A DNA stretch of 64,000 bases, from the NCBI GenBank assembly GCA_038217285.1, contig JBBQPO010000001.1, positions 22,264-86,263 on the forward strand, written 5' to 3'. Positions 13,401 through 58,368 of this stretch are shown piece by piece. The position numbers and the translations under genes were made by a program. Source of the DNA: Chthonomonadales bacterium. GTDB lineage: Bacteria > Armatimonadota > Chthonomonadetes > Chthonomonadales > Chthonomonadaceae. The notes below the pieces were generated by a model. That model was not told the origin of the DNA, did not search any database, and worked only from the letters and a program-made list of their open reading frames with translations. Numbering within the stretch: position 1 is the stretch's first letter; every line of letters begins with the position of its first letter.

Positions 13401-13549
13401 TTGACCTGTGGCAGCAGGTCGCGTTCGAGGAAGCGGACGATCTCATCTCGCTTTGAGTTCATAATTCGGTAGATGCCGAAGTCGAGATCCGCCTGGTCGA
13501 GTTGAAATATCTCGGTCAGTTTGGAAAGCAGTTTATCGTAGTTCGTCAT
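10496..13549 (-). CDS. mod: Type III-like site-specific DNA methyltransferase (Mod, beta class), unusually long
   Basis: [11 protein letters not shown] (motif IV) precedes [12 protein letters not shown] (motif I). N-terminal [12 protein letters not shown]. 1017 aa. Confidence 0.9.
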
Positions 13550-16410: not shown

Positions 16411-16637
16411 GAAGGCAGATCTCCCTACTCTGGAAAACTTAAACTGCTTCCAACATAACTGAACGCCCCGGCGAGGCTGGCCCCGATTGGGCTTCTACCG
16501 GTCGAGATAGGAAGAGGATAAATCAGTATACACGAAAACAGGCAAGTGATGATCCTGCCCTTCACGCGTCAACAACCATTGTGTACGAAGCGTCCGTGTT
16601 GCCGGAGCAGCGCAAGTCGGCGGTAAGTGACCGCCCT

Positions 16638-24237: not shown

Positions 24238-26388
24238 TCAGGCTTTGAGGCCGTTGGGCGCCAGGGGCAGGGTATACAGCGGCTGGCCGGTCGCATTGAA
24301 GAGGGCGTTGCGGATGGCGGGCGCGATGACGACGATGGGCGTCTCCCCTGCCCCCTGTGAGGGCAGGTCTTTGCGATCCACGAGCACGATCTCGATGGGC
24401 GGCACGTCGGCGAAACGCGGGACGCGGTAGGCGGCCAGGTGCGGATTGAGAATTTTGCCCTGCTCGAACTGAATGGCCTCGAACAGCGCACCCCCCATGC
24501 CCATCACGAGCGAACCCTCCACCTGATTTTGCAGATGCAGCGGGTTGACGATCGCGCCGCACTCGAAAGCCGCGACGATCCGTGTCACCTGCACTTTGCC
24601 GGTAACTCTCTCGACCATAACCTCCACACAGCCGGCGACATAGCTTCCCTTTTCCGTGCCACAGGCCAGACCATAGCCACGCCCAGGGGCAGCGCGCCGC
24701 TTGTCCCAGCCAAAGTGCGTTGCAGCCGCTTCCAGCACGGCGCGCAAACGCGGATCTTCGAGATTCTTGAGGCGAAAGGCGAGCGGATCGAGCTTGACGG
24801 CATGGGCCAGGTCGTCGATATGCGATTCGCGCGCGAAGTGGTTGGCGGTGGCGGCCAGACCACGATAGGAGCCTTCGCGCAGCGGCGCCTGAGTCCGATG
24901 GAAATCGGCGCGCTGATCGGGAACGGCGTAAGGGGCGCGAATGCCGGACGGCCCGGAATTGTAGTTGTCGAACTCCCAGTGCGTCAGGGTTCCATCGGCC
25001 TGCGCCGTTGCCTTGACGTCGATGACCCCTGCCGGCCGGAAGTAGGCCCAGGTGAACTCCTCTTCCCGCGTCCAGACCAGTTTGACGGGTTTGCCCGCCG
25101 CACGGGCGAGCCGCGCCGCTTCGATGGCGACCTCGCCGGTATGCTTGCCGCCATAGCCCGACCCAGTATCCGGAACGATCACGCGCACACTGCTTTCCGG
25201 CACTTTGAGCGCTGTCGCCAGGTCGCTGCGCACACCGAAGGGACGCTGAGTGCCGGTCCAGACCGTGAGACGATCATCCTTCCACTCCGCGACCGCCGCG
25301 CGCGGTTCGAGCGGGGTGTGCGCGATATAGGCGACCGTGTACGTCGCCGCTATGGTGGAACCGGTCGCAGCAGGATCGGACGCCTTCGCCTCTCCCGTTT
25401 TCCCTGCCTTCGCGCCCGGTCGTAGCTGCTCGTAGAGAGTCTGACCGGACGGCTGGGCAACGGTCTGCCAGTCGGCTTTGAGCGCCTCCAGCGCGGCGAC
25501 CGCTTCGTGCATCGAGGGCGCCGTGATGCCCACGAAGTCGCCCTCCTGCACGACGGTGACGCCGGGCATCGCTTTCGCGGCCTGCGCGTCGAGGGAGTTC
25601 AGCGTGGCATGAAAGGCCGCAGGGCGCAGGATCTTGCCGTACAGCATTCCGGCACGTTTGACGTCGGTCGTATACTGGTGGCGGCCGGTGACGAAGGCGC
25701 GGCCGTCCGCTTTGGGCGTGGATACTCCCATCACCTTCCACTCGGCAGTCGGAGTCAGCGCGATGTCGGCAGGGATCGTCTGCGTCAGCTTCTGGCCTTT
25801 GACCAGCTCCCCATACGTGACGGTGCGATTCGTGGCGACATGATGGATCTTGCCTCCTCTGGCCGTGAGGGCGCTGCGGTCGACCTGCCACTGGGCGGCG
25901 GCAAGATCGAGAAGCGTCTCGCGCGCGGCGGCGGCGGCTTTGCGTAACTGGGGGATCATGGTCGGCGTGGTTCGACTGCCGAAGGTGCCCATATCGTAGG
26001 GCGTGAGGTCGGTATCTCCCAGCACCATCTGCACGGAGCCAAAAGGTACGCGCAGCTCCTCGGCCACAGCCTGCGCCAGGGAGGTGCGGGCGTTCTGCCC
26101 GACCTCGACCTTACCGCTATAGACCGTCACCTCGCCATTGGCCGCAATGTGCAGCCAGGCTCCAATGGTCTGCGGAGTGGACGGCCCCTGTCGGCGACTG
26201 CCGCCGCCGGACTCCTGGGCCTCTGCATCGGGCAGGGCGACCAGCAGCAGAAGGCCCGCGCCCACCGTACGCAACAGCTCTCGGCGAGACAGAAGCGAAG
26301 GCGCATTCGGACTCGGGCGACCGGCGGCGGACAGAGCCACTGCCTCCTGCGGCTCCGGTTCCGGCAGTAGTAGCGGTCGGCGGCTCAT
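24238..26388 (-). CDS. Xanthine dehydrogenase family molybdopterin-binding subunit (IorB-like), Tat-exported
   Basis: LSRRELL twin-arginine signal, GKVEVGQNA, GTFGSRT, GSGYGGK, GAGETP. Start MSRRPLL overlaps the upstream stop. Confidence 0.9.
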   Translation of the reverse strand: MSRRPLLLPEPEPQEAVALSAAGRPSPNAPSLLSRRELLRTVGAGLLLLVALPDAEAQESGGGSRRQGPSTPQTIGAWLHIAANGEVTVYSGKVEVGQNARTSLAQAVAEELRVPFGSVQMVLGDTDLTPYDMGTFGSRTTPTMIPQLRKAAAAARETLLDLAAAQWQVDRSALTARGGKIHHVATNRTVTYGELVKGQKLTQTIPADIALTPTAEWKVMGVSTPKADGRAFVTGRHQYTTDVKRAGMLYGKILRPAAFHATLNSLDAQAAKAMPGVTVVQEGDFVGITAPSMHEAVAALEALKADWQTVAQPSGQTLYEQLRPGAKAGKTGEAKASDPAATGSTIAATYTVAYIAHTPLEPRAAVAEWKDDRLTVWTGTQRPFGVRSDLATALKVPESSVRVIVPDTGSGYGGKHTGEVAIEAARLARAAGKPVKLVWTREEEFTWAYFRPAGVIDVKATAQADGTLTHWEFDNYNSGPSGIRAPYAVPDQRADFHRTQAPLREGSYRGLAATANHFARESHIDDLAHAVKLDPLAFRLKNLEDPRLRAVLEAAATHFGWDKRRAAPGRGYGLACGTEKGSYVAGCVEVMVERVTGKVQVTRIVAAFECGAIVNPLHLQNQVEGSLVMGMGGALFEAIQFEQGKILNPHLAAYRVPRFADVPPIEIVLVDRKDLPSQGAGETPIVVIAPAIRNALFNATGQPLYTLPLAPNGLKA

Positions 26389-26867
26389 CGCTTTGCCTCC
26401 TTCGGCTGGGCCTCGGCGGCCGCTCGCACGGCGTGCACAATGCGGCGGTAGGTGCCGCAGCGGCAGACGTTGCCGTTCATACCGCGAATGATGTCCTGAT
26501 CGGTCGGATGGGGCGTTTTGCGCAGCAGGCCGACGGCGGACAGGATCATGCCGGAGGTGCAGTAGCCGCACTGGAGAGCGTCGGCATCGAGGAACGCCTG
26601 CTGCACCGGATGGAGGCTGCCCCCGTGTTCGAGGCCTTCGATGGTCAGCACCTGCTTCTTGGCGACGGAACCGATGGGGGTGATGCAGGATCGGGTGGGC
26701 TGTCCGTCGATCAGGACGGTGCAGGCGCCGCACTGGCCTTCGCCGCAACCGTAGTGCGCGCCGGTCAGGTCGAGATCGTCGCGCAGGACGCTGAGCAGAC
26801 TGCGCTCCGGAGCGGCTTCAACGGGATGAACGCTCCCGTTGACGTGAAGTTCGTGTCGGGCAAGCAT
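26385..26867 (-). CDS. (2Fe-2S)-binding small subunit (IorA/CoxS-like)
   Basis: GCGEGQCGACTV, QCGYCTSG, NVCRCGTY. Confidence 0.93.
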   Translation of the reverse strand: MLARHELHVNGSVHPVEAAPERSLLSVLRDDLDLTGAHYGCGEGQCGACTVLIDGQPTRSCITPIGSVAKKQVLTIEGLEHGGSLHPVQQAFLDADALQCGYCTSGMILSAVGLLRKTPHPTDQDIIRGMNGNVCRCGTYRRIVHAVRAAAEAQPKEAKR

Positions 26868-26979: not shown

Positions 26980-29169
26980 CTATTGCGCCGTGGGAAGCAC
27001 GGGGTCCGCTTTGGAGAGGCGGCAGGCGCAGGCTTTGTACTCCGGGATTTTGGAGACAGGATCGAGCGCCGGGTTCGTCAGCAGATTGGCCGATTTCTCG
27101 TCGCCCCAATGGTAGGGAATGAACACCGTATCCTCGCGAATTGTCGCCACGATGCTCGCTTTCAGCGTCACCTGCCCCCGGCGGGTTTCCACCTTCACCC
27201 AGTCGCCGGGAACGAGGCCCAGTGGCTCCGCTAGCTTCGGGTGGATCTCCACGAGTGGCTCGGGGTACTGGTCCACCAGGCTGCCGATGCGCCGGGTCTG
27301 GGTGCCGCTCAGATACTGGCTGACGACGCGGCCCGTCGTGAGGACGACGGGATACTCCTCATCCGGCACCTCGGCAGGCGGACGAAATTCGACGGCGTTG
27401 AAATGCGCTTTTTTGTCCGGAGTGAAGAACTTACGGTCTTCAAAGAGGCGCGGGGTGCCGGGATGATCCAGATCTGGACAAGGCCAGAAGACCCCCTGTG
27501 TGCGCTCGATCTTGTCGTAGGTGATGCCGTAGTAGTCCGCCGTCCCGCCTTTGGAAGCCACTCGCAACTCGTTGAACATATCCTCGGCGGTCTTGTAGGG
27601 GAAGTACTGCCCGCGGCCCAGACGGTTCGCGATGTCGAGCAGGATGTGCCAGTCTACCCGCGCCTCCCCCGGCGGGTCTACGGCTTTGCGGATGCGAATG
27701 ACACGCCCCTCCGCGCTCGTAGAGGTGCCTTCGTCCTCTTCGTGCAGGGAGCCCGGCAGGACAATATCGGCGTGACGGGCTGTCTCACTCATAAAGAAGT
27801 CGATGATCGTGTAGTGTTCGAGACGGTTGAACGCCTCCTTGGTGAAATCGGCGTCCGGAAGAGAGACGACGGGGTTGAAGCAGAGCGACAGCAGGCCCTT
27901 GATCTCCCCGGCATGCATCAACTGGATGATCTCCTGGGCGGTCGCGCCCTTGTGCGGCATCTCCGACTCGGCGATCTTCCAGACTTCGGCGATATAGCGA
28001 CGATGCTCCATATTCTCGATGTCGCGATTGCCGGGCAACTGATCGCACTTGTGCCCGTGCTCGCGGCCGCCCTGACCGTTGCCCTGCCCGGTGATGGTGG
28101 CATAACCGCATCCCGGCCTGCCGAGGCGCCCGGTCGCCAGCACCAGATTGATGCACGACAAGACGTTCTCGACACCTTTCGTGTGGTGTTCGATGCCGCG
28201 CGCGTGGAGCAGAAAACTGGTCTTCGCCGGTCCCCACATCTCGGCCGCCCGGACGATGAGGGCCGGATCTACGCCGGAGAGTTCGCCCGCGAACTCCGGG
28301 GTGTATTTCTCGACCGCCTTTTTGACCTCTTCAAAGCCGCTCGTGCAGTTGTCGATAAACTCCTGGTCGATCCACCCACGGGCGATGACGACGTGCAGAA
28401 TGCCGTTCATAAGCGCGGAGTCGCCGCCGGGACGAACGGGAATATAAAGGTCGGCGGTGCGGGCCATGGGCGTCATGCGGGGATCGATCATGATGAGCTT
28501 CGCGCCCCGATCCCGCGCCCGCCAGATGTAGTCGGTCGTGATGGGCGCGCACTCCGCCACGTTCGCCCCGGTCACGAGGATGACATCGGCCAGGGGAATA
28601 TCGTCCCAGGAGTTCGCCGCGCGGTCTATCCCGAACGCCTTCTTGTTGCCTGCGCCGGCCGAAACCATGCAGAGGCGGCCGTTATAGTCCAGATGTTTCG
28701 TCTGCAGGGCGACACGGGCGAACTTGCCCGCCAGATACGATTTCTCATTCGTGAGGGAGACGCCGGAGAGCATAGCGAACGCGTCTTTACCGAACTGCTG
28801 CTGGATGCGCTTGATCTCCGAGACGGTCGTATCGAGCGCTTCGTCCCAGGAGATCGGCTTGAAACCGGCGTCCGTGCGCTTCAATGGGTGCAGCAGACGG
28901 TCAGGATGCTCGTTCTGGAGATAGCGCTTGATGCCCTTGGGGCAGAGTTTGCCCTGGTTGAAGGGGAAATCTTCGCGCGGCTCGAAGCCGATGACCTTGT
29001 TGTTCTTGACTTTGAGGTTGATGCCGCACTGCTGCCCGCAGAAGCAGCAGTGGGTCGCGACGAGCTTATCCGGCTCCCCCTGATACTGCCAGCCGCCGGG
29101 CGGCGTATAGTTCAGGGTCGGGCCGTACTCCCGAATCAGTTCCTTTACGGACAACGGCGGTTTCGCCAT
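26980..29169 (-). CDS. Mo-bisPGD oxidoreductase catalytic subunit, Nas/Nap nitrate-reductase-like, no Tat signal
   Basis: [11 protein letters not shown]...LCPKG [4Fe-4S] motif, active-site [36 protein letters not shown]. Confidence 0.88.
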
Positions 29170-29284
29170 AGTTCCCACGACCTTTCTACTCTTGGGAGGC
29201 AGGCGGCTGAAACCGGCTCCGCCTTGCACGAACCTGTCGGGAAATCGAGAACCATCCTATCGACGTCCCGCTTCCCACTGCGAC

Positions 29285-30325
29285 CTATAAAAAGCCTGGA
29301 CCGCCGATGGCTTCCAACTGATTGACGGCGAGCATTTTACGCCGGCAGGTCGGGCAGATGTCCTGATAATGCGTTCCGTCTTCGTAGGTATAGTCCATTC
29401 CCAGTTCACCGAGCACCTGTTTCAGATCGGTAACCTGCAGCAGGGAGGCGAACGTCTCCCCGCACCGCCCGCACGGCGCCTGCGCCGTCTCCGCGCCCTC
29501 CTCCTTGTAGTACTGCACTCCCAGATTGGCGGGACGCTGGAAGATATGGAAGAACTTGCCGAACGGCAGATAGAGCAGCAGCAGGATGACGCTGTAGGCA
29601 TGGAGCAGGGAGATGAAACTGTAGGAGTGACCGCGCATCCAGGTGGCGCTGGCCGTCATCATCAGCCCAGTGATACAGACCGCAACGAGCAGGATAAGCG
29701 GCAGGAAGTCCATCGAGAACGACTGCAGGGTCATCGCGCCCTTGTCGTACATACGACGCCGAAACACCAGCGCCATGCCGACGATGATGGCGATGGCGCA
29801 GAAGTCCAGAATATGGAAGGTGACCCAGCCGACCAGCGAGTCCGCCGGGAAGACGCCTGCCGGAATCCCGAAGACCATCGCCTGATACATGGCGGGATCG
29901 CTTGGAGAGGCTTCGAAGTGGATCCAGCCGAAGACCAGTGGGAACGTCACCGCGAACGCGATGAGGCAGCCCCACGACATCAAGAAGTGCGCCGCCCAAC
30001 GCAGATGGCTGCGCCGCGCAATGAAGAGCTGCAGCACGAAATTGGTGACGAACATCTTCATCAGGTGCTGCAGGTTTTTCGGCAGGTGGGCGGGCCGCAG
30101 GAAAAGCTGCCAGCCACGCCGCCAGTAGAGCCGGGTCGGCGGCTTTTGCAGCCAGATCGAATAGCGGTAGACGATCCCGAAGGTCGCAAAAACGGTCGCG
30201 CTGGTATAGGCGATCAAGGCAGGATCGAAGTACCGAAGCCTGCCGGAGCCGAAGTAGATGCCCAGGACCAGTAACAACGAGGCGATGATTCCATTGAGGA
30301 TGGCTTTACGATCCAGGGGGTGCAT
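29285..30325 (-). CDS. NarI-like membrane (cytochrome b) subunit with C-terminal Cys motif
   Basis: Multiple TMs with His residues (AAHFL, FHIL, LLHAY, PFGKFFH). C-terminal CGRC...CPTC. Confidence 0.65.
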   Translation of the reverse strand: MHPLDRKAILNGIIASLLLVLGIYFGSGRLRYFDPALIAYTSATVFATFGIVYRYSIWLQKPPTRLYWRRGWQLFLRPAHLPKNLQHLMKMFVTNFVLQLFIARRSHLRWAAHFLMSWGCLIAFAVTFPLVFGWIHFEASPSDPAMYQAMVFGIPAGVFPADSLVGWVTFHILDFCAIAIIVGMALVFRRRMYDKGAMTLQSFSMDFLPLILLVAVCITGLMMTASATWMRGHSYSFISLLHAYSVILLLLYLPFGKFFHIFQRPANLGVQYYKEEGAETAQAPCGRCGETFASLLQVTDLKQVLGELGMDYTYEDGTHYQDICPTCRRKMLAVNQLEAIGGPGFL

Positions 30326-31424
30326 CAGGACGGCCTAACCCTTTCTTGACATCTCCCAACGCCGCCGGGAGCGTCCACGACTGCCCTATCCCGCGCACAA
30401 GCGAGCGGACCAGGCCAAACATGGTGATCGCCCAGGCCGTCAGCGCTAGCCAGGCAAAGACGGCTGAAATCTGCTGCAGCGGCGCAATATGCATGACGAC
30501 GGACACCCGGTAGGTGGCCACAGAGTACATTCCCAGAGGAAAGACCAGGCTCCAGTAGGCCGGATGATAGGTCACCGGAACTCTACATATCAGATGACGC
30601 CATATCCCATAGATGACAAGCATCGGCACCCACCAACTGCTCCAGGCCAGGAGAAGCAGAGAGACGCCTCTCAGCATAGGCTCCAGCGACGCGAGCAGCG
30701 GCGAGGAGGGTGCGGCCGCCAGGAGATTGACGCCTGCCAGCGTGCTGATCGCGGTAGCGCCCAGAATGATCCAGTTGGGTGGCAGCATCTCGCCCAGATC
30801 GAGATGGGCAAAGAAGAGGCGGTAGACAATCAGCGTGATAAAGATGCTATAGAGTGCCACGCCGATCCCCCAGAGTCCGTACAGCAAAAGGAGGACCATC
30901 TCCGTGTTTCCACCAAAACCCGGAGCCAACAGTGCGCCAAGGACCGTGACGGACTGCATTCCGACGATCAGGATCAGCCAGCTTGAGTTCACCGCTTCCG
31001 CCAGGGGCCGGGTGTTGACGAATGTCAGAGTGCTGAAACAGAAGTATGCCAGAACCATACTGCCTACGAAGGCAACGATCCAGAGCGTCAGCGCGGGCGC
31101 CCTATAGCCTCGCAACAGGAACTGAATACCCAGCACATCGCTCGCTGCCACAAAGGTAAAAAACGTAAACATCGTCGGCGCACCGATCAGATCTGCCCAC
31201 AGTTTCGCCCCGAAGCGGAGGGCGCGGTACACGGTAGCGGCAATCAGCACGGGGTACAGGATCAGATTGATCCAGAAGAGCCATTGCGAGATGTCGCGCA
31301 TTTTGAGAAAAAAGAGCGCGGTGGACACAATTCCGGTCGCCATGACCATCGAAAAGTAACTGGAATTCATCTTTTCGTTCGCGGCGGAGGCCCTGTCGGT
31401 CAGGCGTTGAATCAAAGCAGTCAC
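30306..31424 (-). CDS. TDT/SLAC1 family (tellurite resistance/dicarboxylate) anion channel
   Basis: YFSMVMATGIVS, FTFVAASDVLG, PPNWIILGATAIS, YWSLVFPLGMY. About 10 TM segments. Confidence 0.85.
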   Translation of the reverse strand: MTALIQRLTDRASAANEKMNSSYFSMVMATGIVSTALFFLKMRDISQWLFWINLILYPVLIAATVYRALRFGAKLWADLIGAPTMFTFFTFVAASDVLGIQFLLRGYRAPALTLWIVAFVGSMVLAYFCFSTLTFVNTRPLAEAVNSSWLILIVGMQSVTVLGALLAPGFGGNTEMVLLLLYGLWGIGVALYSIFITLIVYRLFFAHLDLGEMLPPNWIILGATAISTLAGVNLLAAAPSSPLLASLEPMLRGVSLLLLAWSSWWVPMLVIYGIWRHLICRVPVTYHPAYWSLVFPLGMYSVATYRVSVVMHIAPLQQISAVFAWLALTAWAITMFGLVRSLVRGIGQSWTLPAALGDVKKGLGRPDAPPGS

Positions 31425-31437
31425 GTGTTTGCGTTCC

Positions 31438-31680
31438 TCATCTGTCGCTGCGATCCAGGTGGACCAGGTAGTGGAGCAGCCAGAGGTTCAGGAGGAAGCA
31501 GACGCCGGAGGCGCCGAATGTGGGCAGCGCCAGCGCGGTATGCGCCGCCATAAACTCCTCCAGCGCGATGTTCAGCAGCCAGAGCTGGATCAGCAGAACG
31601 GCGAGGATGAGCGCCATCAGGGTCAGGATACCCTGGGTGCGCTGCTCCAGTTTCGCCAGGCGGGGATCGATCCGTCTCAT
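31438..31680 (-). CDS. Small two-TM membrane protein (DUF6755-like)
   Basis: 80 aa, LLIQLWLLNIALEEF...LNLWL. The start overlaps the Rieske stop (ATGA). Confidence 0.7.
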   Translation of the reverse strand: MRRIDPRLAKLEQRTQGILTLMALILAVLLIQLWLLNIALEEFMAAHTALALPTFGASGVCFLLNLWLLHYLVHLDRSDR

Positions 31681-32171
31681 GCGCCCTGTACTCCTACGGC
31701 AAAAATCTGCTCGCCCTCGGTCTTCAGCAGAATGCGCGGCAGCGGTCGCGGCGGCGGGCCTTCCAGAACGTTCCCGGTCGTCGCATCGAAGGCCCCGTTG
31801 TGGCAGGGGCACTCCAGGCGATTGGTATTGGCGGCGAAATGGACGGGGCAACTGAGATGCGTACAGCGCTGCAGATAGGCGACATGCTCTCCACTCGCGA
31901 GACGGATGAGGAGGGCGGGTGAGTCCGCATCCGGGTAGCGAAACAGTTTAACCTGACCGGCCGTCAGCTCATCTGTCCGTGCAATCGGCTGCCGTGCGAA
32001 CTTTTCCAGGTGCTGCCGATAGTGCTGCAGGACGAAGTAGCCGTTGCCCAGGAAGGTCGCGCCAGAGATCAGCACCAGAAATTTGGTAAACTCGCGGCGC
32101 GTGACGTAGTTGTCCGCGCCCCATTCGATGGGGAAATCTTCGCGCCATTTCGGCGTCATCTCGTCGCTCAC
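31677..32171 (-). CDS. Membrane-anchored Rieske [2Fe-2S] protein (QcrA/AioB-like)
   Basis: TRREF twin-arginine-like motif plus [22 protein letters not shown]. Confidence 0.88.
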
Positions 32172-32779
32172 AGCGCATTCTCCTTCCGCTCCGTCGTCCG
32201 AATGTCCGTCAGGCGAATATCTATCTGGGGCCTGGCGCTGCTTCCGGCGGCATCCGCGCTCTCCGGCATCACCATGTAGACGTTGGTACGGACGGTCTGC
32301 CTGCCGAACTTCCAGGTGTTGACCGGTGTGCCGCGCCGACGCTTTTTGAACTCCTCCGGCGACCCAAAATAGAGGGCCTCAGACGGGCAGACGGTCGCGC
32401 ACATGGGCCGTTTCCCAACGGAAGTGCGGTCGTAACACATATCGCACTTCATCATCTGATCGGGCTCGGCGAGGTACTTGGGGACTCCGAAGGGGCAGGC
32501 AAGCACACAGTTCTGGCAGCCGATGCAGCGCGGCTTGAGGGAGGACTGCACAACGCCGTCGGGCATCTGCTTGATCGCATCTGCCGGGCAGACCTGGGCG
32601 CATGTCGGATTTTCACAGTGCATGCAGACCTGCGGGGTAGTCTGCACGGTTTCCGCGCGGTTGATATATTCCAGATGGATCAGAGAGACACCACGATGCG
32701 TGTCACACTCGCCACACGCATGCACACACGCCTGACAACCGATGCAGCGAGCGGGATCGATGATAAAGACATTCTCCAA
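32168..32779 (-). CDS. 4Fe-4S electron-transfer subunit (DmsB/NrfC-like)
   Basis: [42 protein letters not shown]...CATVCP. Confidence 0.92.
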
Positions 32780-33051
32780 CGCGTCACCTCTTTATGGCGC
32801 TGACGGCTCCAGGTTTCATCCTGCCGGGATGCCTGCGGAAAAGATATCAGACTGCTTAAAGGCAGCCCTTGTTCTATAACCTTAGATATACCCCATTTTC
32901 CTCCTTATTATAACCTTCAATGGTCCCGCACCGCATCCCCTAAATGGCGGGTTGTGCTTCAAACCGGCTGCATTTCACCCCATTTCGATTGCCAAATCCA
33001 GGCCGCTCCTTGATCTCCTTGAGGAGCGGCCGTGGGGGTGCGATACCCGTA

Positions 33052-33795
33052 TCAATTTCCGCGCTTCTGTGCGGGGCAGGCTGTGGACAGTTCTGCTTCG
33101 CGCGCCTCCGCTCTGGGAAACAGGATACTGTTCTCTTTATGCACGTGCCGGTGCGTATCGGCTTCCAACTCGGCAAGCCCATCGAGCATCACGCGGTAAG
33201 TGGCGCAGCCGCCTTCGGGAAGTGTGAATCCGTTGGTCAGGCGACGCATGGTCTCCAGCGCCGCTCCTGCCGCCTCGTGTTCCTTTTCCAACACGCGGAT
33301 CGAACTGCCTATTGCGGCAGAAGGGGAGGCAGGCAGCGTCTCTACCCGTTCCAGACGATCAATGTAGGGAAAGAACACCTTCTCTTCCTCTTGCGTATGC
33401 GACTCCATTTCGGCCCGAAACCCCGCGAAAATAGTGGCGAGTTCGACCAGTTCCGGATGTCGCTGTGCATGGACATCGCGGACCTTTTGAGTCAGGAAGC
33501 TCAGGCGCGGGAGCGCTTCGCGCAGATAGGCATGATGGGTCGTGAGGATGTCTGCGATGAGTTCGGAAAGCCGCGCCGTCCTCCAGTCCCTGCGGTCACC
33601 GCGTTCTTCCGTGCCTTCGGCCTGGAGATCACGCAGGATGGCGTCGAGGGCGCCCGACTTGCCCACACAGGCCGCTTCCAGCCGTTGTTTGCCTCCACAG
33701 CAGTAGTCGATCCCCCAGTGTTCAAACAGACGGGCGCGAGACGGGCGCTCCGCGACCAGACCTCCCACCGTTTGCTGCAATAGTTCGGCGTTCAT
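33052..33795 (-). CDS. ric: Iron-sulfur cluster repair di-iron protein (RIC/YtfE/ScdA)
   Basis: GIDYCCGG, HHAYLR, HPEL, HTQEEE..FP, EHE, HVHKENSILFP. Start MNAELL. Confidence 0.92.
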   Translation of the reverse strand: MNAELLQQTVGGLVAERPSRARLFEHWGIDYCCGGKQRLEAACVGKSGALDAILRDLQAEGTEERGDRRDWRTARLSELIADILTTHHAYLREALPRLSFLTQKVRDVHAQRHPELVELATIFAGFRAEMESHTQEEEKVFFPYIDRLERVETLPASPSAAIGSSIRVLEKEHEAAGAALETMRRLTNGFTLPEGGCATYRVMLDGLAELEADTHRHVHKENSILFPRAEAREAELSTACPAQKRGN

Positions 33796-33840
33796 TAGAC
33801 TCTCTTCTCTGTTCCAGGAATCCAGGAATTCCCGCCGGAA

Positions 33841-33902
33841 CGTTAATTGGATATACATGTCCAATTAACGATACTGTACCGCTCGTCTTTCTCGACTGTC
33901 AA
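33841..33902 (-). promoter_or_regulatory. ric promoter with a 30-bp palindromic operator over the transcription start
   Basis: Minus strand TTGACA (33902-33897)-18 bp-TACAGT (33878-33873), immediately followed by CGTTAATTGGA-N8-TCCAATTAACG (33841-33870). Confidence 0.75.
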
Positions 33903-34030: not shown

Positions 34031-34102
34031 CTCCCTGTGATGGGCTCGAACCATCAACATTTCGGTTAACAGCCGAACGCTCTACCATTGAGCTAACAGG
34101 GA
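34031..34102 (-). tRNA. tRNA-Asn (GTT), CCA not encoded
   Basis: Reverse complement TCCCTGTTAGCTCAATGGTAGAGCGTTCGGCT-GTT-AACCGAAATGTTGATGGTTCGAGCCCATCACAGGGAG folds into a cloverleaf. Confidence 0.97.
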
Positions 34103-36225: not shown

Positions 36226-38655
36226 TCACCAGCCGACGGAGTCTACGTAACAGACGCCTGTCCAGACGCCGTTCGTCTGGAACTGAACTCCAAGCTGAGA
36301 CAAGGGCGTGGCTGCGGTGGCGGGAACCGTGACGGTCAGGGTATTCCAGGCGCCTGCCGCCAGGCTTGCAATCGGCTGCCAGTTGCCGGTCCAGGTCCAG
36401 TTGCCTCCCGCTCCCTGCTGCACGAAGGGCTGGATAGATGTCAGGGTGCTGCCGGACGGGATCCAGATATGGAAGGTGACCGTCGCGCCCGCCGGTGTCG
36501 CTGGGGAGCCGACATAGGCCGTCTGGGCGCCTCCGGCGGAGGGGCTGTTGATCGATACGGCCAGGGAGTGCGACCCGGCATAGGCTTTCACCGTGCTGCC
36601 GGCCACGCCGGTGAGGATGCCGCCGGAAGAGACCCAACCCTGCGCACCGCTCTCGAAGTTGTACTGGGCGGAGTCACCGGCGGTAACGGTCACGGTCGCC
36701 GCCGCGCCGTTCCAGTAGTAGTTGACCCCCCACGTCGAATTGAACACACCAACCTTCACCGTATAGGTGCCCACCGTGGAAGGCACCACCCAGGCCCATG
36801 AATAGGGGCGGGACTGATTGGCGGTAAAGTTCTGGCCGGTATAGGCTTGCTGACCGACTTTGGTCCCGGCCAAATTATAGACCTCCAGATCTACGATTCC
36901 GTTGGAGAGCGCGCCGCCCGCGTCGGTGACGGTCGTGGAGATGGTCGCGGTCGCTCCCGGAGCGACGGAAGACGGGGAGACGCTCGTGGAACTCGTGAAG
37001 GTCGGCGTCTTACCGGCGGATTTGGGCAGGACGAACAGCGTGATGCTCTGCGCGGGCGCGGTGAAACCAAGGCTGCTGCCACTGACGGTGATGTCGCTCA
37101 GGCGGTTGATGGCGTTGGCGGAGGTGAGCTGCCAGACCTGCGCCGTGCCGGTGCTGGTGAAGTTGGCAAGGTTCAGGGTGACGGCGGTCGTGCCCGACAG
37201 GTACTTGCTGATAACCATGACGGTGAGCGCGCCGTCGATGGTTCGCTGGGCGGCGAAGGCGGAGACATTGTCCGGGTTCGGAACGGTCGCAGACACGCTG
37301 GTATCGCCGAACGTGGACTTGCTGCCGTCGTAGTTGCGATACATCTTGATCGCTTTGTAGGTCGGCGTCGTGTTGCCCGGCGTCGTCCACCGGGTGGCCA
37401 AGTCCAGCCCTTCCCGCCCAAAGATGCCGAGGATATCCGCCTGCGTGGTCGCGCCGTTGATATGCCCTTCGGCTCCCCAGTTGTATTCGGTAATGCCGGT
37501 GAAGGTGCCCGGATAGTAGGTGTTCACCCAGCCCTTGATGCGGGGGATGAGTTGAACCTGGCTATTGATCCACGACTGGTCTACATAGCTCGGATCCCAC
37601 AGCGAGCGCGTGGACTGATTGCGTTTGGTCTGCATCGCCGTCGTCACATCGTTGCTGAACTCTCCGCCTTGCGGATAGTAGTGGACGCTGAACACGTCCA
37701 GGATCCGCTTGCCGGTAGAGGCATTGTTCTGACGCAACTGATCGAGCAGCCAGGGCAGATAGTCCCAGTTGCCGTTTGCGGCTCTATCCGGGATCGTGCT
37801 CCATCCATGTATTCCGGTGTACTGCTGGTCGTAGCCGCTGTAGAAGTAACCGCTCCAACCCCACTCTTCCGGCCCAACCACCAGGGCGGAACTGTCGTTC
37901 GCCTTGACCTTCCCGCCATAATCGAGGATCTTATTGCGGATCTCGGCCATCGTGGCGCCGGTGGGATGGACATCGCGGTGGGTGCTATGCCAGAGGCTCG
38001 GCTCATTGTCCATGAGGTAGTATCGGAGCCCTCCGCTGTTGGCGGGACCCCACTTCGCGACAAGATGCTGCATCCAGCTATTCTGAAAAGTCGAATCGGA
38101 GAGGACATTGGCATCGTTCGGATCGTTGCCCGTCACGTTCTGCCCTGTGCTGCTCAGAACACCGTTGCCGGCATCCGGAAACCACTGAAAATCATTACCC
38201 GTCTGTGCGCCGTATTTGGCGATGGAGAAGCTGGCGAGTTTGCTGCGGTTGGCCCCTACCCTGGCGACCCAGCCGACCATCGGGATCGTGAGCAGGGCTT
38301 GCGCCCCGCCGCTCTTGCTGTTGGAGATAAACGTGTCGCCCCGCTCCCCAGCGACAGCGCTGGTGTCGCCGATGCTCTCGAAATAGTAGTCGCTGCCGCG
38401 ATTGTCGGCGTTCACATTCCAGTTGTAGCGGCTGGTGTTGTTGCCGCCATTGCGATTGAGAAGGATATTCAGGTCTGACAGGGTAGGAGTATCCGCGTAT
38501 GCCATCCCGTAGATGTTGGGGTTGATAGCGCGGCGGTTCGCATTCGCGTCGACGTTGACGGTGACGGCAGGATTTTGCCCCAGAGCAGGGCCTTCGAATG
38601 CGGTGATGGTGAGAAATAGGGCGGCGAAAGTCGCTGCAGGGTTGATTCGTACCAT
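36226..38655 (-). CDS. Secreted glycoside hydrolase family 44 (endoglucanase/xyloglucanase) with Ig-like and CBM-like C-terminal domains
   Basis: GGNNTSRYNW, MDNEPSLWHSTHRDVHP, HYYPQ, TRSLWDPSY, ITEYNWG, ADILGIFGREG. Confidence 0.9.
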   Translation of the reverse strand: MVRINPAATFAALFLTITAFEGPALGQNPAVTVNVDANANRRAINPNIYGMAYADTPTLSDLNILLNRNGGNNTSRYNWNVNADNRGSDYYFESIGDTSAVAGERGDTFISNSKSGGAQALLTIPMVGWVARVGANRSKLASFSIAKYGAQTGNDFQWFPDAGNGVLSSTGQNVTGNDPNDANVLSDSTFQNSWMQHLVAKWGPANSGGLRYYLMDNEPSLWHSTHRDVHPTGATMAEIRNKILDYGGKVKANDSSALVVGPEEWGWSGYFYSGYDQQYTGIHGWSTIPDRAANGNWDYLPWLLDQLRQNNASTGKRILDVFSVHYYPQGGEFSNDVTTAMQTKRNQSTRSLWDPSYVDQSWINSQVQLIPRIKGWVNTYYPGTFTGITEYNWGAEGHINGATTQADILGIFGREGLDLATRWTTPGNTTPTYKAIKMYRNYDGSKSTFGDTSVSATVPNPDNVSAFAAQRTIDGALTVMVISKYLSGTTAVTLNLANFTSTGTAQVWQLTSANAINRLSDITVSGSSLGFTAPAQSITLFVLPKSAGKTPTFTSSTSVSPSSVAPGATATISTTVTDAGGALSNGIVDLEVYNLAGTKVGQQAYTGQNFTANQSRPYSWAWVVPSTVGTYTVKVGVFNSTWGVNYYWNGAAATVTVTAGDSAQYNFESGAQGWVSSGGILTGVAGSTVKAYAGSHSLAVSINSPSAGGAQTAYVGSPATPAGATVTFHIWIPSGSTLTSIQPFVQQGAGGNWTWTGNWQPIASLAAGAWNTLTVTVPATAATPLSQLGVQFQTNGVWTGVCYVDSVGW

Positions 38656-58146: not shown

Positions 58147-58328
58147 TTGACAGGGGCGTTCGTCGCCTGCTATACTCTAAGGAGTGTTGAGGCGCGGTGT
58201 TGCGCTTCCCCTTCGATCCAGTCATTTCCCCGATCGCATTCGGACGGACACAATGTCGTTCCCGTCTTAAGCCAGCGTTCTTTGTCCGACTCCTTCTCAT
58301 GAGGAGGAGGCGAAGGCGTTTTTTGTTT
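58147..58328 (+). promoter_or_regulatory. glnA promoter and structured 5' leader with a terminator-like hairpin
   Basis: TTGACA (58147)-18 bp-TATACT (58171). Stem CTCCTTCTC/GAGGAGGAG with an extended lower stem and TTTTTTGTTT about 40 nt before the ATG. Confidence 0.6.
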
Positions 58329-58368
58329 GGACAAATTCCCCACCCTTTTACAAGGAGACGCGCGTAAC

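What the first reader, a model, noticed from the sequence alone, without database searches (positions are those of the whole stretch)
26980..33870. Candidate nitrosative-stress / N-oxide-converting membrane complex: RIC + 4Fe-4S + Rieske + small TM + SLAC1 channel + NarI-like + Nas-type Mo enzyme
Seen: overlapping or tightly spaced genes for a DmsB-like FeS protein, a Tat-type Rieske, an 80-aa TM protein, a TDT/SLAC1 channel and a His-containing NarI-like protein with a CxxC..CxxC tail. These are followed by a cytoplasmic Mo-bisPGD enzyme with the RLCM nitrate-reductase active-site signature, and preceded by ric. Known: this combination matches none of NarGHJI, NapAB, NasA/NirBD or AioAB. RIC is a hallmark NO-stress gene, and SLAC1-family channels conduct anions including nitrate. 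No nitrite reductase or NarK transporter lies nearby. Inference: a hybrid quinone-linked complex interconverting NO/nitrite/nitrate, with its own anion channel. Related core clusters may already be reported in other bacteria; the embedded channel looks like the unusual part. Best candidate for an under-described system in this window.
Basis: partly seen in the sequence, partly recalled or inferred. Interest (0 to 1): 0.75.

Follow-up and report, generated by a model that had tools for sequence, protein, structure and literature searches.

The report
Rieske-linked membrane nitrate reductase operon
This operon probably encodes a membrane-bound nitrate-reducing complex of a build not yet characterised: a Nas-type catalytic subunit wired to a four-cluster ferredoxin, a NarI-like cytochrome and a Rieske protein. 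It is common in soil bacteria, and here a SLAC1-type anion carrier sits where the usual nitrate transporter would be.

Summary
In detail: all seven genes lie on the minus strand at the stated coordinates.

- **Conserved module.** Six of them (FeS, Rieske, DUF6755, SLAC1/TDT, NarI-like, NasC-like) are tightly packed. Their core recurs in Armatimonadota, Acidobacteriota, Planctomycetota, Myxococcota, four cultured Deinococcus plasmids and Brevibacillus laterosporus.
- **Transporter slot.** The usual sixth member is a NarK-like MFS transporter. Of 52 complete loci, 44 had MFS only, 6 TDT only, none both. This genome lacks that MFS.
- **Mo subunit.** It carries the GRLCM motif. In a tree it forms its own clade inside Bacillus-type NasC, apart from NapA and FdhF.
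- **Membrane subunits.** The NarI-like protein resembles NarI and EtfD in fold. The Rieske is bc1/AioB-type with an invariant twin-arginine anchor. A complex model places it on the outer face of the NarI-like protein (0.79; best control 0.43).
- **ric.** It has its own promoter and is a frequent but optional neighbour (20 of 80 loci).

Best reading: a quinol-linked, cytoplasm-facing nitrate reductase of a new architecture. It is not an NO/nitrite/nitrate interconverter. Only a passing 2012 remark on Bacillus bataviensis was found in print. Nothing has been tested experimentally.

The parts
33052..33864 (-). ric (di-iron Fe-S repair protein, ScdA/YtfE type). The ORF runs from the TTG at 33864; the likely start is the ATG at 33795. 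It is an optional neighbour transcribed on its own.
   Evidence: TIGR03652 236.5 bits against 204.7. Pfam finds ScdA_N plus Hemerythrin. The promoter-like TTGACA..TACAGT and the start context were read.
33843..33868 (.). Perfect palindrome TTAATTGGA-N8-TCCAATTAA just downstream of the ric promoter-like hexamers. It is a probable operator.
   Evidence: One match in the window, none in 100 shuffles. It is the only site in the 6.2-Mb genome at up to 3 mismatches.
32168..32779 (-). Four-cluster [4Fe-4S] ferredoxin (FCP, DmsB/HybA/FdnH-like). It has no signal peptide and no membrane helix.
   Evidence: Fer4_11 76.8 bits. HybA 100, FDH-beta 98.9 and DmsB 98.9 bits, all under their cut-offs. Sixteen cluster Cys are invariant in 40 sequences.
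31677..32171 (-). Membrane-anchored Rieske [2Fe-2S] protein. It has a conserved N-terminal peptide, a twin-arginine anchor helix, and an outward-facing domain with CTHLSC and CPCH boxes.
   Evidence: PF00355 48.6 bits. R25, R26, C103, H105, C108, C121, C123 and H124 are invariant in 37 sequences. The nearest solved relatives are AioB at 78 bits and bc/b6f Rieske at 60-69 bits.
31438..31680 (-). DUF6755, an 80-aa two-helix membrane protein. The model packs it against the Rieske anchor helix.
   Evidence: PF20540 54.9 bits against 27. The QLWL motif is invariant in 29 sequences. Contacts with Rieske residues 32-43 appear in the complex model.
30306..31424 (-). SLAC1/TDT-family anion carrier in the slot that a NarK-like MFS transporter fills in most relatives. 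It is the probable nitrate/nitrite carrier.
   Evidence: PF03595 144.1 bits against 27.9; TIGR00816 92.8 bits against 237.25. MFS and TDT exclude each other across loci. This genome has no orthologue of the module's MFS.
29285..30325 (-). NarI/EtfD-like six-helix membrane protein, a probable b-type cytochrome and quinol site, with a cytoplasmic Cys4 tail.
   Evidence: QmoC 34.5 bits at E 1.5e-8; PF02665 18.2 bits, under its cut-off. H113, H242, H260 and C285, C288, C324, C327 are invariant. The AF2 model has pLDDT 87.4. VIA-align gives EtfD Z 11.3 and NarI Z 10.0.
26980..29229 (-). NasC-type Mo-bisPGD catalytic subunit. It is cytoplasmic and has an N-terminal [4Fe-4S] and a Cys-Met active-site motif. 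The start is either the GTG at 29229 or the ATG at 29169.
   Evidence: NF047855 846.9 bits against 1100. GR[LF]CM is present in 71 of 71 cluster members. It forms its own clade with SH-aLRT 100.

Best explanation
The six packed genes encode a membrane-bound, cytoplasm-facing nitrate reductase of a so far uncharacterised architecture, together with its anion carrier.

Proposed electron path (inferred):
- Quinol is oxidised at the outer face of the NarI-like b-type cytochrome.
- The Tat-inserted, bc1/AioB-type Rieske domain docks at that face.
- Electrons cross the membrane through the haem(s) of the NarI-like protein.
- They reach the cytoplasmic four-cluster ferredoxin.
- They pass from there to the [4Fe-4S] centre and the Mo-bisPGD site of the NasC-type subunit, which reduces nitrate to nitrite.

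Other parts:
- DUF6755 is a small membrane subunit that clamps the Rieske anchor helix.
- Nitrate entry and/or nitrite exit is normally served by a NarK-like MFS transporter. In this genome a SLAC1/TDT carrier does that job.
- ric next door repairs Fe-S clusters damaged by NO that arises from nitrite. It is a separate, optional transcription unit.

In this organism the nitrite is most simply passed to a NirA-type nitrite reductase encoded elsewhere, which would be assimilation. The redox-loop layout would also conserve energy, so a respiratory role at low oxygen is equally possible.

Shown: gene content, conservation, motifs, folds, and a complex model that passed its controls. Inferred: the substrate, quinol as donor, haem binding, the direction of transport, and the physiological role.
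For: 1. **Conserved module.**
- All four core genes are present in 68 of 80 loci. The other 12 are cut by contig ends.
- Two gene orders occur. FCP-Rieske-DUF6755 and carrier-NarI-NasC move as two blocks.
- The module is also present in four cultured Deinococcus plasmids and in Brevibacillus laterosporus.

2. **Nitrate as substrate.**
- NasC is the best NCBIfam model at 846.9 bits.
- GR[LF]CM occurs in 71 of 71 cluster members, whereas the solved FDHs shown have Cys/Sec-His at that position.
- The module Mo subunits form one clade (SH-aLRT 100) inside the group that holds NasC/NasA genes lying next to nirB/nirBD. NapA and FdhF fall outside it.
- The partner MFS scores best against NarK TIGR00886: 215-236 bits against 44-87 bits for the next models.
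- MobA follows the Mo gene in L007.
- Neighbouring genes include ric, NnrS-like, Crp/Fnr, haemerythrins and multihaem cytochromes.

3. **Membrane complex and topology.**
- The loops of the NarI-like protein that are rich in Arg/Lys (61-106, 190-197) fall on the side of its N-terminus and of the Cys4 tail. This was read from the sequence against the model's helices.
- MFS-NarI fusions exist: L016 at 728 aa, and six frames of 751-804 aa.
- The fold resembles EtfD and NarI.
- The Rieske twin arginine and the bc-type CTHLSC/CPCH boxes are invariant.

4. **Complex model.**
- Rieske was the partner against NarI-like, FCP and DUF6755.
- The score was 0.79 and the best control 0.43.
- That mark was reached by 116 of 157 solved complexes and 2 of 215 mismatched pairs.
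- The runs agree in at least 92% of contacts, and the partner pLDDT is at least 77.
- The Rieske cluster loops touch the outer loops of the NarI-like protein (136-147, 161-170).
- The anchor helix touches NarI-like helices and DUF6755.
- The Rieske N-terminal peptide touches FCP residues 58-78.

5. **Carrier.**
- Of 52 complete loci with at least 1.5 kb on both sides, 44 had MFS only, 6 TDT only, 0 both and 2 neither.
- Of 15 TDT loci in the phylum sample, 6 are embedded in the module and 2 lie next to the MFS.
- The genome has no NarK over cut-off and no orthologue of the module's MFS.

6. **This genome.** It has no NarG, no second NasC, no NrfA, and no NirB or NirK over cut-off. A NirA-like fragment is present.
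Against: - **No experimental support.** No experiment exists, and no RNA run holds the locus.
- **Scores below cut-offs.**
  - Every subunit except ric, TDT, Rieske and DUF6755 scores below the curated cut-off of its nearest family.
  - The best solved relatives of the Mo subunit by sequence are formate dehydrogenases at 501-539 bits, against 351 bits for NapA.
- **Haem ligands incomplete.**
  - Only three membrane His are invariant in the NarI-like protein.
  - The candidate fourth haem ligand, H171, is Asn in the Terriglobales-type sequences.
  - Two bis-His haems as in NarI are therefore not assured.
- **Weak fold evidence.**
  - Foldseek gave no match at E 0.001 or better.
  - VIA Z scores of 10-11 for a helical bundle are moderate by the tool's own note.
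- **Complex model is indirect.**
  - It used my own alignments and four chains, unlike the calibration.
  - One control reached 0.43.
  - FCP-NasC and FCP-NarI contacts were not tested.
- **Rieske role unclear.** No electron acceptor or donor for the Rieske domain is conserved, so its role is unexplained.
- **Carrier direction unclear.** An anion channel under an inside-negative membrane potential would favour efflux, so TDT may export nitrite only. Nitrate entry in this genome would then be open.
- **Known Nas enzymes are soluble.** Known NasC-type enzymes are soluble and assimilatory (PMC7331816 and PMC10100899, passages read).
Confidence: 0.6

Rival explanations
1. This is a soluble, purely assimilatory Nas variant. 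The FeS protein and the Rieske protein act as ferredoxin-like donors to NasC, as NasG does in Paracoccus. The NarI-like protein and DUF6755 belong to the transporter or are unrelated.
For: The Mo subunit nests inside the NasC group whose other members lie beside nirB/nirBD. Heylen and Keltjens proposed an 'alternative assimilatory' system for nasC plus FeS plus Rieske in B. bataviensis (PMC3475470, passages). This genome has a NirA fragment and no dissimilatory nitrite reductase was found. The Deinococcus carriers are aerobes (recalled).
Against: The Rieske has an invariant twin-arginine anchor helix and bc1-type disulfide Cys. It is closest to AioB and bc Rieske at 60-78 bits, against 26-37 bits for dioxygenase ferredoxins. 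The NarI-like gene is present in every uncut locus and is sometimes fused to the MFS. The complex model joins Rieske, NarI-like and DUF6755.
Confidence: 0.12
2. The Mo subunit and the FeS protein are carried across the membrane by the Rieske protein's Tat signal, as AioA is by AioB. This would give a periplasm-facing nitrate reductase fed by the NarI-like quinol dehydrogenase.
For: The twin arginine is invariant in the only subunit that has a signal. The Rieske is nearest to AioB. Hitch-hiking export of Mo enzymes is known (recalled). Haloarchaeal outward-facing Nar has its own Rieske, NarB, and cytochrome b, NarC (PMC2483277, passages).
Against: A nitrate/nitrite carrier is conserved beside the module or fused to it, which an outward-facing enzyme would not need. 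In the model FCP touches the Rieske N-terminal peptide, which lies on the cytoplasmic side of the anchor helix. The Cys4 tail of the NarI-like protein lies on the cytoplasmic side.
Confidence: 0.08
3. The enzyme acts on another substrate, such as chlorate, selenate, tellurite, iodate or formate. The TDT (tellurite-resistance/dicarboxylate family) carrier would move that substrate.
For: The NasC score is under the equivalog cut-off, and Fdh-alpha scores 622.7 bits against 666.25. The best solved relatives are FDHs. Members of the TDT family are named for tellurite resistance and dicarboxylate transport.
Against: The Cys-Met motif, not Cys/Sec-His, is present in 71 of 71 members. The usual partner is a NarK-family MFS. 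The neighbouring genes are ric, NnrS-like, Crp/Fnr and multihaem cytochromes. The clade sits within NasC.
Confidence: 0.08
4. One reading: a nitrosative-stress complex that interconverts NO, nitrite and nitrate, with ric and the channel as integral parts.
For: ric lies in 20 of 80 loci, on varied sides and strands. NnrS-like and haemerythrin genes recur nearby.
Against: ric and TDT are optional: TDT is in 8 of 80 loci and ric within 1.5 kb in 11 of 80. ric has its own promoter and a unique operator. The module contains no NO-binding or NO-reducing family. The conserved set is what a nitrate reductase needs.
Confidence: 0.05

Closest known systems
NarGHI respiratory nitrate reductase
   Same: The layout is the same: a Mo-bisPGD subunit, a four-cluster FeS subunit and a NarI-fold membrane subunit facing the cytoplasm. 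NarK-type carriers lie alongside. Such a redox loop would conserve energy. The NarI fold match is Z 10.0 with 22% identity over 180 residues.
   Different: The catalytic subunit is the Cys-ligated NasC type, not the Asp-ligated NarG type: narG model 59 bits against 1084. The FeS subunit has 203 aa, and the narH model gives 40 bits against 524. The membrane subunit has six helices, a Cys4 tail and only three invariant His. Rieske and DUF6755 subunits are added. No NarJ was seen.
Bacillus-type assimilatory NasC (with NasB/NirB)
   Same: The catalytic subunit is the nearest relative: NF047855 846.9 bits, and the same clade in the tree. The GRLCM motif is shared.
   Different: The score is under the equivalog cut-off of 1100. 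No NasB/NirB partner lies at the locus. The partners are FCP, a NarI-like protein and a membrane Rieske instead. The module forms a separate clade with SH-aLRT 100.
nasC plus FeS protein plus Rieske cluster of Bacillus bataviensis (Heylen and Keltjens 2012, PMC3475470)
   Same: This is probably the same module. The authors noted nasC linked to an iron-sulfur protein gene and a Rieske gene and called it an alternative assimilatory system (passages read). A related Bacillales copy, in Brevibacillus, carries the NarI-like and MFS genes too.
   Different: The passages read mention no membrane subunit, topology, distribution or carrier, and the remark was not tested. I did not examine the B. bataviensis locus itself.
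Arsenite oxidase AioAB / iodate reductase IdrAB
   Same: A Mo-bisPGD enzyme of the Nas/Nap/Aio branch is paired with a Tat-anchored, disulfide-bearing Rieske protein. AioB is the nearest solved Rieske at 78 bits.
   Different: The Aio models score under their cut-offs: large subunit 175.9 bits against 359, small subunit 55.2 against 95.65. Here the Mo subunit keeps its Cys ligand and its [4Fe-4S] motif. FCP and a NarI-like subunit are present. The active site is probably cytoplasmic.
Rieske/cytochrome b complexes (bc1, b6f; NarB/NarC of haloarchaeal Nar)
   Same: A Rieske domain is docked on the outer face of a b-type membrane cytochrome at a quinol site. In Haloferax a Rieske (NarB) and a cytochrome b (NarC) are encoded in the nar operon (PMC2483277, passages).
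   Different: The membrane partner here has the NarI/EtfD fold, not the cytochrome b fold; Pfam finds no cytochrome b at E 0.01 or better. No cytochrome c1/f-type acceptor is conserved.
EtfD / QmoC / HdrE / DsrM-type NarI-like membrane modules
   Same: EtfD gives the best fold match, Z 11.3 over 220 residues. QmoC gives the best sequence match, 34.5 bits. In both, a NarI-like membrane domain is tied to cytoplasmic Cys-rich or FeS parts.
   Different: All scores are far under the family cut-offs. Those systems serve flavoprotein or sulfur metabolism. None is known to me with a Rieske partner (recalled).

Membership tests
NarGHI | NarG-type catalytic subunit (TIGR01580) | tested here: not met
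   59.1 bits against the cut-off of 1084.15. No NarG elsewhere in the genome; the best match is 51.9 bits.
NarGHI | NarH-type FeS subunit (TIGR01660) | tested here: not met
   40.2 bits against 524.05.
NarGHI | NarI gamma subunit (PF02665) with four haem-ligand His | tested here: inconclusive
   18.2 bits against 22.9. The fold match to 1q16_C is Z 10.0. H113, H242 and H260 are invariant, and the fourth candidate, H171, is His or Asn.
Nap (periplasmic nitrate reductase) | NapA equivalog score and a Tat leader on the Mo subunit | tested here: not met
   TIGR01706 290 bits against 930.55. There is no twin arginine before the first Cys motif. NapA forms a separate clade.
Assimilatory NasC (NF047855 equivalog) | Score over the equivalog cut-off | tested here: not met
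   846.9 bits against 1100. It is the nearest family but a distinct clade.
Assimilatory NasC | Cys-Met active-site motif and N-terminal [4Fe-4S] motif | tested here: met
   GRLCM is present in 71 of 71 cluster members. Molybdop_Fe4S4 scores 51.1 bits. That Cys-Met marks nitrate reductases is recalled.
Assimilatory NasC | NAD(P)H or ferredoxin-type partner (NasB/NirB) at the locus | tested here: not met
   None found in the window or among the recurrent neighbour clusters of the 80 loci.
Arsenite oxidase AioAB | AioA and AioB equivalog scores | tested here: not met
   175.9 bits against 359.05, and 55.2 against 95.65.
Formate dehydrogenase alpha (TIGR01591) | Score over the cut-off and Cys/Sec-His at the active site | tested here: not met
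   622.7 bits against 666.25. Met, not His, follows the Cys, whereas the solved FDHs shown have His.
RIC / ScdA / YtfE | TIGR03652 equivalog score; ScdA_N plus haemerythrin domains | tested here: met
   236.5 bits against 204.7. Both domains are present.
SLAC1/TDT (PF03595) | Pfam gathering score | tested here: met
   144.1 bits against 27.9, covering 3-330 of 331 profile positions. The TIGR00816 subfamily is not met: 92.8 bits against 237.25.
Respiratory (bc1/b6f/AioB-type) Rieske proteins | CxHxxC and CxCH boxes with disulfide Cys; twin-arginine signal anchor | tested here: met
   CTHLSC, CPCH and R25/R26 are invariant in 37 sequences. The nearest solved relatives are AioB and bc/b6f Rieske. 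That the second Cys of each box forms the disulfide is recalled.
Rieske/cytochrome b complex | Cytochrome b (bc1/b6 type) membrane subunit | tested here: not met
   Pfam finds no cytochrome b family in the NarI-like protein at E 0.01 or better. Its fold is closest to EtfD and NarI.
DUF6755 (PF20540) | Pfam gathering score | tested here: met
   54.9 bits against 27.
NarK/NNP transporters (partner in relatives, absent here) | TIGR00886 score | tested here: inconclusive
   Three partner MFS proteins of relatives (one of them the fused form in L016) score 215-236 bits against 311.7, but far above any other MFS model. 53 of 56 carry one GxGNxG motif. In this genome the best score is 35.6 bits.

The most novel reading that the evidence does not exclude
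The module is a new class of Rieske/b-cytochrome complex. A NarI-fold cytochrome takes the place of cytochrome b. The Rieske centre sits at the outer quinol site. The low-potential branch ends on a cytoplasmic Nas-type nitrate reductase instead of a second quinone site. If so, it would be a fourth bacterial nitrate reductase architecture beside Nar, Nap and Nas. It might split the two electrons of quinol as bc1 does. It could also be an evolutionary link between Nas and the Rieske-bearing Aio/Idr enzymes. SLAC1-family proteins would then serve as bacterial nitrate/nitrite carriers interchangeable with NarK.
Probability: 0.2. Interest if true: 0.9.

Novelty: new variant of a known kind. Interest (0 to 1): 0.7.

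Why it matters
- **Textbook view.**
  - Nitrate reductases are sorted into Nar, Nap and Nas.
  - Two family-wide phylogeny papers state that the Nas/Nap/Aio branch is not tied to four-cluster or membrane-anchor subunits (PMC7331816 and PMC10100899, passages read). This module breaks that rule.
- **Abundance.** The NarI-like marker was found in 59 of 401 sampled species genomes of the window's phylum and in 56 of 401 sampled Acidobacteriota. These are major soil phyla.
- **Misannotation.**
  - Records call the parts 'MFS transporter', 'molybdopterin oxidoreductase family protein' and the like.
  - Metagenome surveys would therefore score the module as plain assimilatory nasC, or miss it.
  - If it is quinol-linked and energy-conserving, budgets of dissimilatory against assimilatory nitrate reduction in soils would need a second look.
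- **Bacterial SLAC1.** The swap of NarK for TDT gives a testable role for bacterial SLAC1-family proteins.
- **Tractability.** Cultured carriers make all of this testable: several Deinococcus species, Edaphobacter aggregans DSM 19364 and Brevibacillus laterosporus.

Tried and rejected
- **Earlier notes of this scan:** none for this genome.
- **Literature searches that found no description of the module:**
  - DUF6755: 0 papers.
  - Nitrate reductase, Rieske, NarI-like, NasC.
  - Armatimonadota, Chthonomonas, nitrate reductase.
  - Six-term search with NarK, NnrS and Acidobacteria.
  - Rieske, nasA, quinol, Acidobacteria.
  - Deinococcus, Rieske, molybdopterin oxidoreductase: 0 papers.
  - nasC, Rieske, Brevibacillus, Paenibacillus. 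This returned only the 2012 Bacillus paper.
  - Subscription journals are not covered, and I opened no supplementary files.
- **RNA evidence:** no RNA holder was listed for the locus, so no reads were laid.
- **Foldseek on the NarI-like model:** no match at E 0.001 or better. VIA-align was used instead.
- **phmmer of the TDT protein against solved structures:** no hit at E 0.01 or better.
- **Protein atlas look-up:** not available.
- **Shared regulation of ric and the operon:** rejected. The ric palindrome occurs once in the genome.
- **ric as an integral part:** rejected as a defining feature.
- **First tree run:** lost. It was repeated with the quick LG+G4 method, so support values are SH-aLRT only. 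The long NasA, NapA and FdhF branches make the deeper order unsure.

Full report
**What is in the window.**

All seven genes lie on the minus strand, in a window of about 60% G+C. In order of transcription they are:
- ric, 33052-33864. TIGR03652 scores 236.5 bits, over its cut-off of 204.7.
- A 203-aa four-cluster ferredoxin (FCP), 32168-32779.
- A 164-aa Rieske protein, 31677-32171.
- An 80-aa DUF6755 protein, 31438-31680.
- A 372-aa SLAC1/TDT protein, 30306-31424.
- A 346-aa NarI-like protein, 29285-30325.
- A 749-aa Mo-bisPGD enzyme, 26980-29229.

The six genes from FCP to the Mo enzyme overlap or lie within 13-115 nt of one another. ric sits 272 nt upstream of FCP. It has its own promoter-like hexamers and a perfect palindrome, TTAATTGGA-N8-TCCAATTAA. 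That palindrome occurs nowhere else in the 6.2-Mb genome. A tRNA-Asn gene and a terminator-like hairpin precede ric.

The names of the closest homologues place the organism in Armatimonadota, order Chthonomonadales.

**The module is conserved and wide-spread.**

Of these, 523 encode a relative, and the best 80 loci were kept.

tblastn with the window's proteins found NarI-like, NasC-like, FCP and Rieske together in 68 of the 80 loci. In the other 12 the contig ends where the missing genes would lie.

Two gene orders occur:
- FCP-Rieske-DUF6755-carrier-NarI-NasC in the Armatimonadota-labelled loci.
- Carrier-NarI-NasC-FCP-Rieske-DUF6755 in Acidobacteriota and others, or the same order with the carrier last.

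FCP-Rieske-DUF6755 and NarI-NasC therefore move as two blocks.

Record titles include Acidobacteriaceae, Blastocatellia, Pyrinomonadaceae, Planctomycetota, Kofleriaceae and Edaphobacter aggregans DSM 19364.

The Mo subunit is 65-67% identical to genes on plasmids of four cultured Deinococcus strains. There the neighbours are annotated as follows:
- 'MFS transporter', which is the NarI-like gene.
- 'molybdopterin oxidoreductase family protein'.
- '4Fe-4S dicluster domain-containing protein'.
- 'Rieske 2Fe-2S domain-containing protein'.
- 'DUF6755 family protein'.
- 'nitrate/nitrite transporter'.

Brevibacillus laterosporus B9 carries a more distant copy: radical SAM, MFS, NarI-like, NasC at 51% identity, FCP, Rieske.

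A profile of the NarI-like protein matched 59 of 401 sampled species genomes of the window's own phylum, though none of the three same-genus genomes. It also matched 56 of 401 genomes sampled from the phylum of E. aggregans.

**The carrier slot.**

Clustering all ORFs of the 80 loci showed a 397-aa MFS protein beside the module in 56 loci. Its best NCBIfam model by far is NarK TIGR00886. That model gives 215-236 bits, under the cut-off of 311.7, while the next models reach 44-87 bits.

Among the 52 loci with the full core and at least 1.5 kb on both sides, the counts were as follows:

| Carrier next to the module | Loci |
|---|---|
| MFS only | 44 |
| TDT only | 6 |
| Both | 0 |
| Neither | 2 |

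In L016 the MFS is fused to the NarI-like protein as a 728-aa product. Six genomes of the Acidobacteriota sample show open frames of 751-804 aa at the match. This fits such fusions, but I did not inspect them.

The window's genome is 95% complete. It has no NarK over cut-off (best 35.6 bits) and no orthologue of the module's MFS (best 23.5 bits).

TDT genes are rare in the phylum sample, at 14 of 401 genomes. Yet of the 15 TDT loci, 6 are embedded in the module and 2 lie next to the module-type MFS. Some of these TDT copies are only 35-40% identical to the window's.

The simplest reading is non-orthologous replacement. TDT does here what the NarK-like carrier does elsewhere. Whether that is nitrate entry, nitrite exit or exchange is not shown.

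**The catalytic subunit.**

- The best NCBIfam model is Bacillus-type NasC at 846.9 bits, under the cut-off of 1100.
- Fdh-alpha follows at 622.7 bits (cut-off 666.25), NapA at 290 and NarG at 59.
- By plain sequence the best solved relatives are cytoplasmic formate dehydrogenases at 501-539 bits, ahead of NapA at 351.
- At the Mo-ligand position, however, the solved FDHs shown read Cys/Sec-His. All 71 members of the NasC-like ORF cluster read GR[LF]CM. That Cys-Met marks Nap and Nas enzymes is recalled.

I built a quick maximum-likelihood tree of 34 rows:
- 25 module copies, chosen by me to span the labelled taxa.
- The Brevibacillus copy and a second NasC paralogue from L007.
- Paenibacillus NasC, which lies beside nirB.
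- Deinococcus grandis nasA and Ralstonia nasA, each beside nirBD.
- Two NapA and two FdhF.
- The remaining cluster members, roughly 50, were left out.

The tree put all 25 module copies in one clade with SH-aLRT 100. Brevibacillus is their sister, with support 95. Both lie inside the group that holds the Paenibacillus and D. grandis assimilatory enzymes. NapA with Ralstonia NasA, and FdhF, lie outside.

The deep branches are long, so their order is unsure. The enzyme is thus a NasC-type nitrate reductase by descent, but a distinct lineage that goes with the new partners.

**The membrane part.**

*NarI-like protein*
- It matches QmoC's membrane domain (34.5 bits, E 1.5e-8) and PF02665 below cut-off.
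- Its AlphaFold model has mean pLDDT 87.4 and six long helices.
- Foldseek gave only weak rows.
- VIA-align against 48,161 chains ranked M. smegmatis EtfD first (Z 11.3, 220 residues) and E. coli NarI second (Z 10.0, 180 residues, 22% identity). Everything else scored Z 8 or less. By the tool's own note this is moderate support for a helical bundle.
- In 33 homologues H113, H242 and H260 are invariant. H242 and H260 are 18 residues apart, as I recall for NarI His187 and His205.
- A fourth candidate ligand, H171, is Asn in the Terriglobales-type sequences.
- The tail carries invariant C285, C288, C324, C327 and H319.
- Loops rich in Arg/Lys lie on the side of the N-terminus and the tail. By the positive-inside rule that puts both in the cytoplasm, which also fits the MFS fusions.

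*Rieske protein*
- It has invariant R25-R26 in an RRE(F/M)xKF motif before its only helix.
- It has an unusually conserved N-terminal peptide, with D12, F13 and P14 invariant.
- The bc1-type boxes CTHLSC and CPCH are invariant.
- The family profile is nearest to AioB (78 bits) and to bc and b6f Rieske proteins (60-69 bits). Dioxygenase ferredoxins reach only 26-37 bits.

**Complex model.**

One controlled prediction was run with four chains: NarI-like, FCP, DUF6755, and Rieske as the scored partner.
- It scored 0.79 against a best control of 0.43.
- That mark was reached by 116 of 157 solved complexes and 2 of 215 mismatched pairs.
- The runs agree in at least 92% of contacts, and the partner pLDDT is at least 77.
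- My own alignments and the four chains differ from the calibration, so the counts hold only roughly.

The contacts in the model are:
- The Rieske anchor helix lies between NarI-like helices (residues 46, 50, 247, 251, 252) and DUF6755.
- The cluster-binding loops (101-112, 122-126, 137-142) sit on the outer loops of the NarI-like protein (136-147, 161-170).
- The conserved N-terminal peptide reaches FCP residues 58-78 on the other side of the membrane.

This supports binding but does not show it. I know of no solved Rieske-NarI complex that the model could have memorised (recalled). FCP-NasC and FCP-NarI contacts were not tested.

**How it most likely works.**

Putting this together gives the following path:
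- Quinol is oxidised at the outer face of the NarI-like cytochrome, where the Rieske centre docks.
- Electrons cross the membrane.
- They enter the four-cluster ferredoxin and reach the NasC-type subunit.
- That subunit reduces nitrate brought in by the NarK-like or TDT carrier.

This is the logic of NarGHI built from Nas-type and bc-type parts. The role of the Rieske centre is the weakest point. It could be the first acceptor at the quinol site, or one arm of a bc1-like split. No conserved acceptor for it was found.

Physiological role:
- In this genome no NarG, second NasC, NrfA, NirB or NirK was found over cut-off. A contig end carries a NirA-like fragment of 243 bits over 311 aa, next to an ABC permease. 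Assimilation is therefore the simplest role here.
- In the Acidobacteriota loci the frequent neighbours are Crp/Fnr regulators, NnrS-like proteins, haemerythrins, Usp, NapC/NirT and multihaem cytochromes, and ric. That speaks for use at low oxygen.
- ric is present in 20 of 80 loci, and within 1.5 kb in 11. It occurs on either side and either strand, far more often than chance for a single-copy gene, but it is optional.

**What is known.**

- Two family-wide studies of the DMSO reductase family state that the Nas/Nap/Aio branch lacks the canonical four-cluster and membrane-anchor partners (PMC7331816 and PMC10100899, passages read).
- Heylen and Keltjens (PMC3475470, passages read) noted that nasC of Bacillus bataviensis is linked with an iron-sulfur protein gene and a Rieske gene. 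They suggested an alternative assimilatory system. This is the only prior mention I found.
- Haloarchaeal Nar operons encode their own Rieske (NarB) and cytochrome b (NarC) (PMC2483277, passages read). A nitrate reductase with a private Rieske therefore has a precedent, although that enzyme is of the NarG type and faces outward.
- Seven literature searches found no characterisation of the module. Subscription journals are not covered.

**Verdict.**

The finding is a new variant of a known kind: an uncharacterised, wide-spread nitrate reductase architecture. This copy is notable for a SLAC1-family carrier in the NarK slot. All functional statements remain inference from sequence, context and models.

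Noticed in passing
window 6298-17900: A low-G+C stretch (0.49-0.56, against about 0.62 around it). It holds Type III restriction/SNF2-like helicases, an N6/N4 DNA methylase, a RhuM-family protein and a DUF4143 AAA ATPase. It looks like an acquired restriction-modification or defence island.
   Followed up: no
window 24238-26867: A xanthine-dehydrogenase/aldehyde-oxidase-type Mo-hydroxylase pair (large subunit plus 2Fe-2S small subunit) lies directly downstream of the NasC-like gene on the same strand. It did not appear among the recurrent neighbour clusters of the related loci.
   Followed up: partly
window 33843-33868 and 34031-34102: A perfect 9+9 palindrome sits at the ric promoter and is unique in the genome. 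Its regulator is unknown. A tRNA-Asn gene with a terminator-like hairpin lies just upstream.
   Followed up: partly
L016 6846-9032; genomes G547, G548, G629, G667, G784, G785: The NarK-like MFS transporter is fused to the NarI-like protein in one reading frame of 728-804 aa. This probably explains why NCBI names the stand-alone NarI-like protein 'MFS transporter'.
   Followed up: partly
alignment A1, residues 138 and 171 of the NarI-like protein: The Terriglobales-type sequences have Arg for H138 and Asn for H171. One haem may therefore be bound differently, or be absent, in that lineage.
   Followed up: no
L010 9071-10243, L029 13254-14420, L114 274-1368 and others: A radical SAM gene, with a SPASM domain in the Armatimonadota and Acidobacteriota copies checked, recurs next to the module. 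One ORF cluster holds it in 9 loci, and it also occurs in L010 and Brevibacillus. It may be a maturase, but its role is unknown.
   Followed up: no
L021 12695-14035 and 11 further loci: A 446-aa membrane protein with only a sub-threshold NnrS match (24.4 bits against 28) follows the module in 12 loci. It is a conserved accessory of unknown role.
   Followed up: no
L007 9562-10194 and 10846-12978: A close relative carries MobA and a second NasC paralogue (48% identical) directly after the module's Mo gene. The two NasC types coexist there.
   Followed up: partly
G000 contig C425 (L087 1-933, minus strand): The genome's only NIR_SIR gene is a NirA-like fragment cut by the contig end. It lies next to an ABC permease that matches sulfonate and nitrate permease models about equally.
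   Followed up: partly
window 58327-59784 and 36226-38655: A glutamine synthetase gene lies about 25 kb from the operon, and a GH44 glycoside hydrolase with a long C-terminal extension lies 2.4 kb upstream of ric. No link to the module was seen.
   Followed up: no
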